This document shows positions 15,001 to 18,000 of a DNA stretch of 45,010 nt, one piece after another. Position 1 is the first letter of the stretch, and each line of letters starts with the position of its first letter. A program made the position numbers. This stretch comes from a virus (lineage: Duplodnaviria > Heunggongvirae > Uroviricota > Caudoviricetes): IMG/VR virus record IMGVR_UViG_2917870735_000003, one strand, 5' to 3'.

Positions 15001-18000
15001 CGCCCCGTCCAAGCCAGAGATGACAGCTTCCGCCATCATCCGGCGAAACCCGGTCTACCCAGAAGTTTTCCTCACCGATGGTCAGCGTGTCTCCACGCCG
15101 CAGCTGCCGCACATCATCAGTCCGGACAAACAGGGACGGGCTGGAGCCTTCAACGCGCACGCCCTGTCCGGCATAGCTGATATTTTCAGGGTCATCAAAA
15201 ACACCACGTATTACAGCACCGGACTGCTCACCGGATGTAATGGTGGCTGACGTTCCCATGTACCCGCGTATCGTTTCATCGGCGCGGGCAATGGCAGCAT
15301 CGAACAGGTTATCAAAATCAGCCACAGCGCCTCCCGCTATTGCATTCTGACCAGGCTACGCGCTGTCATTTCGGCTGCCACACCGGCAGAGACACGAAGC
15401 GCCGTTCCCGGCAGCACAAATGCCACAGGTTCATCCCGCGTGGCGTGAAGTGCATCGGTATGCAGCGTCACCAGTGCCACGACCGTGACCAGTTCAGCCG
15501 TATCCTGAATCACGGTGTCCGGCTGCGCTGATACCACCTCATTTTCATGCCCGGTCAGCGCATTTTCCTGGCTGAGAGGGGTGTCCTGACCGGCAATGTC
15601 ATCCGTGTCATCAAGCTCCTCTTCCAGCTCTGCCACACGGAGCGCCAGTTCTTCTTTCGTCCCCGTCAGGCTGACATCACGGTTCAGTTGTTCACCCAGC
15701 AAGCGGAGACGGGCAATCAGTTCATCTTTCGTCATGGACTCCTCCACAGAGAGAAAATGGCCCCGAAGGGCCACGATTACGCCAGTTGTACGGACACGAA
15801 CGCATCAGGGTCAGCCAGCAGCATCAGTGGTGCTGACTGAATCATGGTGAACTCACGCGCCGGATCGCCGGTGGTCACCCAGTTTTTCGGGTAGCGGGCA
15901 GAGGCGTTAATGCCTTCGCGCTGTGCGTCCGCATCCTGAATGCAGCCATAGGTGCGCAGACCGCGTGCCTGAGTGTTCCCCAGCACCATCGTGTTGTCCG
16001 GCAGGAAGTTCTTTTTGACGTCGTTTTCCACGTACTGTCCGGAATACACGACGATCGCCATATCGCCATACATCCCCTTGTAGGACACCGCTTCGCCCAG
16101 GTCTTTCACCGCTGTCTCCAGCTCGGAATGAGAGCCGCGACGGGTATCCAGCTTCTCCTTGACGGCCTTGAAGGAACGGAACAGCGCCCAGCCTTTCGGA
16201 TCAAACACGATGATATTCACCACACCGCTGGCGTTCAGCGCGTAGGCTTCGATATCGTCGGTCGGGTCATACGTGGACTTGTCGCGCTTGCTCCACTCCG
16301 TGCCACCGGACTGTGTGATGTTGTTCGCCGCACTGCGCCCCATATCCACCTCAACCGGATCAAAGGCTTCACCGGTCATGGTGTATTTGCCCTTAAGCAC
16401 GGCAGAAACTGCCTGCATCTCTTCGACCTGGGCAATGGCCAGCTCTTCATCACGCATGTTCTGCATGATGATGCGACGGCGGCGGTAAGCCGGGTCCGCC
16501 AGATTCTGCGGATCTTCATCCGGCAGGCGACGCAGGGTCATCTGCGGATTCACCTCATGCTTCGGCTTGACATATCCCGGCGTAAATTCAGAGGTGGAGC
16601 CGCCACGGGAACGGATAACCTCACCGGAAACAATCGGCGAAACGTACAGCGCCATGTTTACCAGTCCCGGAATTTGTGAGAGATAGACTTTCTCCGTGGT
16701 GAAGGGATAGCTCTCACGGAAAAAGAGACGCAGAAACAGCGGATCAAACTTAAATTTCTGCTCATTTGCCGCCAGCAGTTGGGCGGTTGTGTACATCGAC
16801 ATAAAAAAATCCCGTAAAAAAAGCCGCACAGGCGGCCTTTAGTGATGAAGGGTAAGGTTAAACGATGCTGATTGCCGTTCCGGCAAACGCGGTCCGTTTT
16901 TTCGTCTCGTCGCTGGCAGCCTCCGGCCAGAGCACATCCTCATAACGGAACGTGCCGGACTTGTAGAACGTCAGCGTGGTGCTGGTCTGGTCAGCAGCAA
17001 CCGCAAGAATGCCAACAGCAGCGCCATCGGTGGTGCCATCCCACGCAACCAGCTTACGGGTGGCGGTGTCCAGCATCAGCGGGGTCATTGCAGGCGCTTT
17101 CGCACTCAATCCGCCGGGCGCGGTTGCGGTATGAGCCGGGTCACTGTTGCCCAGCGGCTGGTAATGGGTAAAGGTTTCTTTGCTCGTCATAAACATCCCT
17201 TACACTGGTGTGTTCAGCAAATCGTTAACGGCATCAGATGCCGGGTTACCTGCAGCCAGCGGTGCCGGTGCCCCCTGCATCAGACGATCCAGCGCAGTGT
17301 CACTGCGCGCCTGTGCACTCTGTGGTGCTGCGGCCAGAATGCGGCGGGCCGTTTCCACGGTCATACCGGGGGTTTCTGCCAGCACGCGTGCCTGTTCTTC
17401 GCGTCCGTGAGCCTCCTCACAGTTGAGGATCCCCATAATGCGGCTGTTTTCTGCCGCAACCGCTGCGGTGATCTGCGCGTTCACGTCCGGCTGCGCCGCG
17501 CTGGCGTTTTCGCCCTCCGTAGCTGGCACCACGTCAGTAACGTCAGCCTGCGAAGCGGTGGCTGAAACAGTTGTTGATTGAGTCTCTTTGGTCATTCGCC
17601 CTCCTGAGAGACGGGATTTACGTGCATCCAGTGCATCACGCATGACGGTGATCGCATCGGTACTGTTAACAAGTTCATCAGCCAGTCCGGCATCAATGGC
17701 CTCCTGACCGCTGTACACTGCAGCCTCGGTATCCAGCACAGCCTGCACGGACAGGCCGGTATATGCCGACACCTTCTGCGCAAACATCTGGCGGGTTGCA
17801 TCCATCCGGGACTGCAGTGTCTCCCGGACGTCATCCGGAAGATGGCTGTAGGGGTTGCCATCCACCTTATGGCTGCCGCTGTAAATCAGCGTGATTTCCA
17901 CACCCTGTTTCTCCAGCGCAGCACCGTAATTACTGTGAGCCATCATGACGCCGATGGAGCCTGTCCGGGCGGTCTGCGTGACCAGACGCCGGGAGGCGGC

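What the first reader, a model, noticed from the sequence alone, without database searches (positions are those of the whole stretch)
16815..16840. Terminator-like hairpin with U-tract between D and E
The coding strand has GCCGC-ctgt-GCGGC followed by seven U, between the D stop and the E start. It may tune the D:E expression ratio or RNA stability under Q-antiterminated transcription; lambda appears to have the same element, so this is conserved rather than new.
Basis: partly seen in the sequence, partly recalled or inferred. Interest (0 to 1): 0.2.

Follow-up and report, generated by a model that had tools for sequence, protein, structure and literature searches.

The report
Lambda D–E intergenic terminator hairpin
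This is the small terminator-shaped RNA hairpin that phage lambda and its relatives carry between the head-decoration gene D and the capsid gene E; it is real and conserved, but already annotated in related phages, so it is ordinary.

Summary
On the minus (coding) strand, GCCGC-CUGU-GCGGC (16836-16823) is followed by seven U (16822-16816). It lies 21 nt after the D stop and 20 nt before the E start. It is base-for-base identical to lambda 6101-6121. GenBank records of phages 434, HK629, HK225, mEp237 and N15 already annotate it as a putative rho-independent terminator.

It is not chance. Such sites are expected fewer than once in the window. Terminator-like hairpins occur in 30 of 36 unique long D–E spacers from related (pro)phages, against 0.94 expected. 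In the lambda/N15 clade the stem and U7 never vary, while the loop, upstream linker and neighbouring wobble positions do. Distant lineages have unrelated G+C stems with a U-tract at the same place.

The best reading is an intrinsic terminator inside a Q-antiterminated late operon; a Q gene (PF03589) and a tR'-like hairpin lie upstream. It would stop unmodified RNA polymerase before E, and Q-modified polymerase would read through it. It may also cap RNA 3' ends. No experiment on this site was found, so the physiological role is inferred. Tuning of the D:E ratio is unlikely, because both proteins are needed about 1:1. Known feature, low interest.

The parts
16858..17190 (-). Head decoration gene D (lambda D homologue). 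The stop codon TAA is at 16860-16858.
   Evidence: Pfam PF02924 HDPD, E = 4.7e-22. Aligned to lambda D 5747-6079. The ORF listing starts the ORF two codons earlier, at 17196.
16841..16857 (-). Upstream linker between the D stop and the hairpin. It contains no G and varies in relatives, including a 12-22 nt indel.
   Evidence: Sequence. Column variability is 0.3-0.6 and indels are present in the clade alignment.
16823..16836 (-). Core hairpin GCCGC-CUGU-GCGGC: five G-C pairs and a 4-nt loop at 16828-16831.
   Evidence: Stem columns are invariant across 23 unique clade sequences while loop columns vary 0.5-0.6. RNAalifold predicts this as the only consensus structure in the spacer.
16837..16840 (-). 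AAAG upstream of the stem. It can pair with the first four U of the tract (G.U plus three A-U), extending the stem to 9 bp.
   Evidence: MFE structure at -12.2 kcal/mol. A-U to G-C compensatory changes occur at these base pairs.
16816..16822 (-). U7 tract directly after the stem.
   Evidence: Invariant in the clade. Across 29 unique hairpins, T count is 6.4 of 8 on the 3' side against 1.7 of 8 on the 5' side, p = 2e-6.
16803..16815 (-). ACGGGA (Shine-Dalgarno-like GGGA, 16813-16810) followed by a second U7 tract (16809-16803), just before the E start.
   Evidence: ACGGGA is conserved in the clade. The second U7 is replaced by AAAAAUC or similar in N15-type relatives.
15777..16802 (-). Major capsid gene E. 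The start codon ATG is at 16802-16800.
   Evidence: Pfam PF03864 Phage_cap_E, E = 3e-71. Equals lambda E 6135-7160. The GTG at 16829 offered by the ORF listing lies in the hairpin loop and is an artefact.
15757..15774 (-). Second hairpin, GUGGCCC-UUCG-GGGCCAU, 3 nt after the E stop, with a weaker U-rich tail. Together with the D-E hairpin it brackets E.
   Evidence: lambda 7164-7179. A post-E hairpin is present in 47 of 54 related loci.
26700..27482 (-). Q-family late antiterminator gene, upstream in the same transcription direction.
   Evidence: Pfam PF03589 Antiterm, E = 4.2e-53.
26575..26590 (-). tR'-like hairpin with a T-tract, about 110 nt downstream of the Q stop. It is presumably the first terminator of the late transcript.

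Best explanation
The element is a factor-independent (intrinsic) transcription terminator embedded in the long Q-antiterminated late operon of a lambda-type phage, between the decoration gene D and the capsid gene E. On the late mRNA, a 5-bp G-C stem forms more than 17 nt past the D stop, which is beyond the reach of a ribosome terminating on D. Upstream A's can extend this stem to 9 bp, and seven U follow it directly. A polymerase that has not been modified by Q would pause on the U-tract and be released there. Such polymerases include leak-through from the constitutively active late promoter past tR', and spurious initiation within the prophage. In that way the capsid gene and everything downstream stay silent unless Q is made. 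Q-loaded polymerase reads through the site during lytic growth. Any RNA that ends or is trimmed back to the site is also capped by the hairpin. Shown here: the structure exists, it is not chance, it is selected on the sense RNA strand, the U-tract is selected, and a Q gene and a tR'-like site lie upstream. Inferred: that termination actually occurs, that Q overrides it, and the physiological role.
For: The geometry matches an intrinsic terminator: a G-C stem, a 4-nt loop, and U7 directly after the stem, in an untranslated spacer. A terminator score from a recalled formula gives d = 22, within the range of lambda's t-oop (30), a tR2-like site (25) and the rexB-end terminator (19). Independent annotators marked the same site as a rho-independent terminator in 434, HK629, HK225, mEp237 and N15. 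Purifying selection: in 23 unique lambda/N15-clade sequences the stem and U7 columns are invariant, apart from one C-to-U change that gives a G.U pair, whereas the loop (at least 12 variants), the linker and wobble positions vary. Structure without sequence conservation: unrelated stems plus a T-tract occupy the same place in 569R10, Vibrio phage K243, and prophages of Serratia, Trabulsiella, Pseudomonas, Marinobacterium and alphaproteobacteria. Terminator-like hairpins occur in 30 of 36 unique spacers of at least 45 nt, against 0.94 expected from dinucleotide shuffles. The T-tract is specific to the 3' side (6.4 vs 1.7 T of 8, p = 2e-6). By contrast, only 21 of the 47 post-E hairpins keep a T-tract. 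Wobble pairs are all G.U on the sense strand (5 vs 0 A.C). RNAalifold finds only this helix, with compensatory changes in 3 of 8 pairs. Context: a Q antiterminator PF03589 and a tR'-like hairpin lie upstream. pR' is constitutive and Q is a processive antiterminator that bypasses intrinsic terminators (PMC7547250; 10.1101/2024.11.20.624540).
Against: I found no transcript 3'-end, in vitro termination or mutant data for this site; Liu 2013 and Casjens & Hendrix 2015 are not held, and the Term-seq supplement is not held. The core stem is short and weak (-7.7 kcal/mol, against -9 to -15.5 for the other lambda sites found by the same scan), so efficiency may be modest. The hairpin sits at a nearly fixed 19-30 nt (mode 20) from the E start in all lineages, whereas its distance from the D stop drifts from 0 to 42 nt. 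That pattern fits a 5'-UTR element of E at least as well as a terminator of D. The U-tract could also be kept as an A/U-rich translation enhancer next to the E ribosome-binding site. Authors who discuss intra-operon terminators in lambdoid late operons say their roles are not known (10.1101/2020.10.05.325894).
Confidence: 0.55

Rival explanations
1. The element acts on mRNA stability and translation for the capsid gene rather than as a terminator. Together with the hairpin 3 nt after the E stop, it would bracket E so that, after endonuclease cuts in the 26-kb late RNA, the D-ending and E-containing pieces resist exonucleases. The U-rich stretch next to the Shine-Dalgarno sequence would act as a ribosome (S1) landing site for the most abundantly made protein.
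For: E is bracketed by two hairpins. A post-E hairpin is nearly universal (47 of 54 loci), including in phages with no D-E hairpin. The distance from the stem end to the E ATG is tightly constrained (19-30 nt, mode 20) across unrelated stems, while the distance from the D stop to the stem is free. D and E are the two proteins needed in about 400 copies (established knowledge).
Against: A pure exonuclease barrier does not need a U-tract directly after the stem, yet 30 of 32 D-E hairpins have one, against 21 of 47 post-E hairpins. The U7 abutting the stem is invariant, whereas the second U7 nearer the ATG is freely replaced by AAAAAUC. There are no half-life or processing data.
Confidence: 0.25
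2. This is the first reader's idea: a leaky attenuator that terminates a fraction of Q-modified transcription and so sets the D:E mRNA ratio during lytic growth.
For: Terminator geometry. Partial termination is one possibility raised for intra-operon terminators in P22-like phages (10.1101/2020.10.05.325894).
Against: It would reduce E relative to D, although about 415 gpE and about 420 gpD are needed per capsid, and all tail genes lie downstream (established knowledge). Q-modified polymerase is resistant to intrinsic terminators (10.1101/2024.11.20.624540). From memory, unverified here: Sampson et al. 1988 attributed late-protein ratios to translation initiation.
Confidence: 0.1
3. The 3' end of the D message is released as a small Hfq-binding regulatory RNA. 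It would be a 3'-UTR-derived sRNA that uses the hairpin plus U7 as its Hfq module, by analogy with StxS, which is made at tR'.
For: A hairpin followed by at least 6 U is the usual Hfq 3' module. StxS shows that a terminated late-operon RNA can be an sRNA (PMC7547250). There is a weak sub-threshold resemblance to isrK (16.5 bits against a threshold of 50).
Against: The would-be seed region (the linker) is the least conserved part and carries indels. No Rfam family reaches threshold.
Confidence: 0.05
4. The spacer holds an internal promoter for E, as annotated in one phi80 record, or the site is a DNA-level protein-binding palindrome, or it is a chance palindrome.
For: phi80 record FN582354 annotates a -35, a -10 and a transcription start site in this spacer. 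Conserved arms with a variable centre also fit a dimer-binding site.
Against: The promoter scan finds nothing here. The annotated -35 lies in the indel-variable linker and the annotated start site lies in the hairpin loop. The one-sided T-tract, the sense-strand-only G.U pairs and the unrelated stems in other lineages all argue for an RNA element. Chance is excluded.
Confidence: 0.03

Closest known systems
Lambda D-E intergenic hairpin (NC_001416/J02459 6101-6121), annotated as a 'rho-independent terminator' at the same position in phage 434 (OL657226 6100-6120) and HK629 (NC_019711 5911-5931)
   Same: The hairpin, the U7 tract, the ACGGGA motif and the second U7 are base-for-base identical. 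The whole Nu1-J module is 96.6% identical.
   Different: Nothing at the site itself. The window's early, Q and lysis regions differ from lambda: a PF03589 Q of another type, a P21-type holin, and a csp gene.
N15 gene 7-gene 8 stem_loop 'putative rho-indep. transcription terminator' (NC_001901 5980-6004), and the equivalent sites in HK225 and mEp237
   Same: Same stem GCCGC/GCGGC, same U7, and the same 20-nt distance to the capsid gene start.
   Different: The loop is CUGC instead of CUGU. AAAA replaces AAAG, so A-U replaces G.U. The linker is 12 nt longer, and AAAAAUC replaces the second U7.
Functional lambda intrinsic terminators (t-oop, tR2, tR')
   Same: A G+C stem with a U-tract. The recalled d-score of 22 compares with 30 for t-oop and 25 for the tR2-like site.
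   Different: The stem is shorter and weaker (5 bp, -7.7 kcal/mol, against 7-8 bp and -12 to -13.5). It lies inside an operon rather than at its end. Its activity has never been measured, as far as I could find.
Intra-operon terminators in P22-like late operons (phage L, after the procapsid module)
   Same: A predicted terminator inside a single-promoter, antiterminated late operon next to the capsid genes. The role is stated to be unknown, with partial termination or blocking of non-antiterminated transcription suggested (10.1101/2020.10.05.325894).
   Different: A different gene module, and a position after the coat gene rather than before it.
Intercistronic mRNA-stabilising hairpins (for example REP in malE-malF, or the puf operon hairpins; from established knowledge)
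   Same: A stable stem-loop between cistrons of a polycistronic mRNA, next to highly expressed genes.
   Different: Those elements need no U-tract. Here the U-tract is as conserved as the stem.

Membership tests
Intrinsic (rho-independent) terminator | G+C-rich stem of at least about 5 bp with a 3-8 nt loop on the transcribed strand | tested here: met
   GCCGC-CUGU-GCGGC, extendable to 9 bp. Energy -12.2 kcal/mol, z = -3.5.
Intrinsic (rho-independent) terminator | U-tract of about 7-9 nt directly after the stem | tested here: met
   U7 at 16822-16816. Invariant in the clade. T is enriched on the 3' side across 29 unique hairpins, p = 2e-6.
Intrinsic (rho-independent) terminator | Located in untranslated RNA, where a ribosome does not prevent folding | tested here: met
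   The extended stem starts 17 nt, and the core stem 21 nt, after the D stop codon, and ends 20 nt before the E ATG.
Intrinsic (rho-independent) terminator | Hairpin stability and score in the range of proven terminators | tested here: inconclusive
   The core energy of -7.7 kcal/mol is the weakest of the lambda sites compared, but the recalled d-score of 22 is mid-range. The formula is quoted from memory.
Intrinsic (rho-independent) terminator | Transcripts actually end at the U-tract, in vivo or in vitro | not testable with these tools
   No data found. The Term-seq supplement of PMC7547250 is not held.
Q-antiterminated lambdoid late operon | Q-family antiterminator gene upstream, in the same orientation | tested here: met
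   PF03589, E = 4.2e-53, at 26700-27482 on the minus strand.
Q-antiterminated lambdoid late operon | Late promoter followed by a tR'-type terminator between Q and the lysis genes | tested here: inconclusive
   A tR'-like hairpin with a T-tract lies at 26590-26575, with AT-rich promoter-like sequence before it. The promoter and Q-binding element were not identified.
Q-antiterminated lambdoid late operon | Q-modified polymerase reads through this particular site | not testable with these tools
   Inferred from the general property of Q.
Transcription attenuator / riboswitch leader | Conserved alternative (anti-terminator) pairing upstream of the terminator | tested here: not met
   The linker is variable and carries indels. 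RNAalifold finds no second helix. The Leu_leader hit scores 20 bits against a threshold of 50.
RNase III processing site | Roughly 20 bp or more of double-stranded RNA | tested here: not met
   At most 9 bp.
Described Rfam RNA family | Score at or above a family's gathering threshold | tested here: not met
   Searches give no hit at the site.

The most novel reading that the evidence does not exclude
The hairpin-U7-Shine-Dalgarno unit may be more than a relic terminator. It could be a dedicated 5' boundary module of the capsid-gene message. It is kept 19-30 nt from the E start in many lineages with unrelated stems. Paired with the near-universal hairpin just after E, it would define a nuclease-resistant, highly translated E cassette within the 26-kb late RNA. 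At the same time it would act as a Q-overridable gate, so that the one element would be both terminator and mRNA-stability/translation module.
Probability: 0.2. Interest if true: 0.4.

Novelty: already known. Interest (0 to 1): 0.15.

Why it matters
It matters little for discovery, because the site is identical to lambda's and is already annotated as a putative terminator in several relatives. The comparative result is of modest value. A terminator-shaped hairpin just upstream of the capsid gene is kept by structure rather than sequence across many lambda-type head modules, and the segment sits in about 59% of complete E. coli genomes. The role of such intra-operon terminators in antiterminated late operons is still described as unknown. 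This well-defined site in a tractable phage would be a convenient place to test that role.

Tried and rejected
1. The built-in terminator scan did not list the site. I traced this to stem extension using up the T-tract and replaced it with my own scan.
2. A pair count on hairpins that my own scan had selected would have been circular. I dropped it in favour of shuffled-spacer frequencies, per-column variability and RNAalifold.
3. The search for related loci with a 7-sequence E alignment failed because no stretch was conserved enough. It worked with 4 closer sequences.
4. Literature: seven full-text searches found no experiment on the lambda D-E site. Liu et al. 2013 and Casjens & Hendrix 2015 are not held. 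No supplement with Term-seq coordinates is held for PMC7547250. The phi80 search returned nothing relevant.
5. Internal promoter: rejected.
6. Attenuator, riboswitch, RNase III site or a known Rfam family: rejected.
7. A long-range pairing of the D 3' codons with E codons 2-3, seen in the 81-nt fold, is not conserved in N15-type sequences and was dropped.
8. Antisense or bidirectional terminator: the opposite strand has only CTTTAGTG after the stem in this window, and the upstream A-tract is not conserved.

Full report
**Observation.** The head genes of this window lie on the minus strand. Read in that sense, the spacer between the D stop (TAA, 16860-16858) and the E start (ATG, 16802-16800) is CCUUACCCUUCAUCACUAAAG-GCCGC-CUGU-GCGGC-UUUUUUU-ACGGGA-UUUUUUU-AUG. 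The stem arms are 16836-16832 and 16827-16823, the loop is 16831-16828 and the U7 tract is 16822-16816, so the reported coordinates 16815-16840 are exact. Upstream AAAG can pair with the first four U, giving a 9-bp stem. That hairpin folds at -12.2 kcal/mol, z = -3.5, and none of 200 shuffles folds as well. The 5-bp core alone is -7.7 kcal/mol. D and E were confirmed by Pfam: PF02924 at 4.7e-22 and PF03864 at 3e-71. The longer E ORF offered by the ORF listing starts at a GTG inside the hairpin loop and is an artefact.

**Chance.** The built-in scan missed the site, apparently because extending the stem through the A-U pairs uses up the T-tract. My own scan required 5 Watson-Crick pairs, at least 4 G-C, a loop of 3-8 nt and at least 6 T in the next 8. 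It finds the site and about ten distinct sites in the window, against 0.65 +/- 1.0 in Markov shuffles. The same scan on lambda recovers sites I recognise from memory as t-oop, the rexB-end terminator, a tR2-like site and the post-J terminators. It misses tR', so it is conservative. Between Nu1 and the end of J, lambda has only three such hairpins on the coding strand: inside the 5' end of C (4487), between D and E (6101), and just after E (7164).

**Identity.** Window 4474-22923 is lambda 18471-13 reversed, at 96.6% identity. The 501 nt around the site are 98.8% identical to lambda and 99% identical to a set of Stx1a-converting phages. The hairpin, both U7 tracts and ACGGGA are identical to lambda 6101-6134. 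GenBank records of phage 434 and HK629 annotate a 'rho-independent terminator' at exactly this place. HK225, mEp237 and N15 do the same at the homologous place; N15 labels it a stem_loop, 'putative rho-indep. transcription terminator'. The lambda reference records themselves carry no such feature. The segment occurs in 3,200 of 5,426 complete E. coli genomes, with up to five copies each.

**Comparative evidence.** Among 80 close IMG/VR loci, the only variants are one-base length changes in the T runs. An E-protein alignment scan of one genome per species, plus GenBank phages, gave relatives with E identity from 91% down to 28%.

- In the alignable lambda/N15 clade (23 unique sequences from Escherichia, Kluyvera, Citrobacter, Enterobacter, Klebsiella, Trabulsiella, Buttiauxella, Pluralibacter, Erwinia and others), the stem and U7 columns are invariant. 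The one exception is a C-to-U change that keeps a G.U pair.
- In the same clade the loop takes at least twelve forms (CUGU, CUGC, UUGC, CAUC, CAGC, UUAU, UAUC, AGAC, AUC, AAAA, UGCA, GGAU). The upstream linker has indels and 0.3-0.6 variability, and neighbouring wobble positions vary 0.2-0.6.
- More distant lineages carry different stems with a T-tract at the same place. Examples are CCGCC/GGCGG (569R10, E. whittamii), GGCUGCC/GGCGGCC (Serratia), GGACCGC/GCGGUCC and GGCCGC/GCGGCC (Pseudomonas), GUCGC/GCGGC (Marinobacterium), GAGCC/GGCUC (Vibrio phage K243) and GGGCGCC/GGCGCCC (an alphaproteobacterium).
- Terminator-like hairpins are present in 30 of 36 unique spacers of at least 45 nt, against 0.94 expected from dinucleotide shuffles.
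- Phages whose D-E spacer is only 4-30 nt, such as Chi and P24, have none.
- Across 29 unique hairpins, the 8 nt on the 3' side hold 6.4 T against 1.7 on the 5' side (p = 2e-6). The 5' side is A-rich.
- When A.C is allowed as well as G.U, all five wobble pairs are G.U on the sense strand.
- RNAalifold on 21 diverse spacers, with no structure imposed, predicts this helix only. Compensatory double changes occur at 3 of 8 pairs.

The element is therefore selected as an RNA hairpin plus U-tract on the late mRNA.

**Context.** Upstream, in the same direction, the window encodes a Q-family antiterminator (PF03589, 4.2e-53). About 110 nt after its stop lies a tR'-like hairpin (26590-26575). Then come a cspA-like gene with its Rfam thermoregulator, another hairpin (25913), a P21-type holin and a lysozyme. 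The late transcript therefore has to cross several terminator-shaped sites, as expected for a processively antiterminated operon. pR' is constitutive in lysogens and is stopped at tR' (PMC7547250). Q proteins make polymerase bypass intrinsic terminators (10.1101/2024.11.20.624540).

**Mechanism.** I favour a genuine intrinsic terminator that acts on polymerase lacking Q, whether from leak past tR' or from spurious starts, and is ignored by Q-modified polymerase. It would have a by-product role as a 3' cap on RNA ends (confidence 0.55). Two things point to termination rather than mere exonuclease blocking:

- The U-tract after the stem is kept as strictly as the stem, in lineages with unrelated stems.
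- Only 21 of the 47 hairpins after E keep a T-tract.

Three things count against it. No experimental 3'-end data were found. The core stem is weak, although a d'Aubenton-Carafa-type score computed from a formula I recall gives 22, against 30 for t-oop and 19 for the rexB-end site. The hairpin also keeps a nearly fixed distance (mode 20 nt) to the E start, while its distance to the D stop drifts.

That last point feeds the main rival (0.25): a stability and translation module for E, which would be bracketed by this hairpin and the cUUCGg hairpin 3 nt after its stop. A 3'-UTR sRNA (0.05) is disfavoured by the unconserved linker. An internal promoter, as one phi80 record annotates, is not conserved and was not found by the scan. 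No Rfam family matches.

**Literature.** I found no paper that tests this site. [quoted passage not shown] Partial termination or blocking of non-antiterminated transcription are offered there as possibilities (10.1101/2020.10.05.325894).

**Verdict.** The feature is already annotated in relatives, so it is not new. Its function remains inferred. Interest is low (0.15). The most novel reading still open is a dual terminator and capsid-mRNA boundary module (probability about 0.2).

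Noticed in passing
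window 15757-15774 (-): A hairpin GUGGCCC-UUCG-GGGCCAU (cUUCGg tetraloop) lies 3 nt after the E stop, with a weaker U-rich tail. It equals lambda 7164-7179. A post-E hairpin is present in 47 of 54 related loci, more widespread than the D-E one, and only 21 of them have a T-tract.
   Followed up: partly
window 18432-18453 (-): A terminator-like hairpin GAACCCGC-CUAUGC-GCGGGUUU followed by UCUUUUG lies inside the 5' coding part of gene C, about 47 nt after the B stop. It equals lambda 4487-4502. An intragenic terminator shape in a poorly translated gene is odd.
   Followed up: no
window 26100-26492 (-): Rfam cspA thermoregulator (158 bits) with a CspA-like ORF (26116-26331, PF00313) sits in the late-operon leader. 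It lies between the Q gene and tR'-like hairpin (26575-26590) and a further hairpin (25900-25913), ahead of the P21-type holin.
   Followed up: partly
window 31059-31245 (-): Rfam hits to C4 antisense RNA (31059-31143, 74 bits) and to the isrK Hfq-binding RNA (31169-31245, 61 bits) lie side by side in the early region. A terminator-like hairpin at 31175-31189 coincides with the end of isrK.
   Followed up: no
loci L097-L112, L123, L129, L134, L140-L148, L158: About 98-100% lambda E sequence turns up in short, roughly 1x-coverage contigs of unrelated assemblies (Kitasatospora, Bradyrhizobium, Neobacillus, Paenibacillus, Prevotella, Akkermansia MAG, Enterococcus and others). This is almost certainly lambda control or spike-in DNA contaminating those genome records.
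   Followed up: no
L007 (phi80 FN582354) 522-556: This record annotates a -35, a -10 and a transcription start site for the capsid gene inside the D-E spacer, with the start site in the hairpin loop. The -35 falls in the indel-variable linker. It could be a software prediction, or a processed or reverse-transcriptase-stop 5' end. The source paper was not found.
   Followed up: partly
window 16700-16960: The D-E segment occurs in 3,200 of 5,426 complete E. coli genomes, with up to 5 copies per genome and 22 places on plasmids.
   Followed up: no
window 22923-45010 and 1-4473: Outside the Nu1-J module, the window matches lambda only in patches: part of O (31323-32746), exo-bet-gam (36231-38231) and a few short pieces. 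It is a mosaic lambdoid (pro)phage, closest in the D-E region to Stx1a-converting phages.
   Followed up: partly
loci L089, L130, L133, L135 (D2/ev017-type, E about 61% identical): The D-E spacer in this group has a longer hairpin (UCAGGCCAC-CAUG-GUGGCCUGA) with no good U-tract, and it is degenerating in two loci. It looks like a variant that lost the terminator tail.
   Followed up: no
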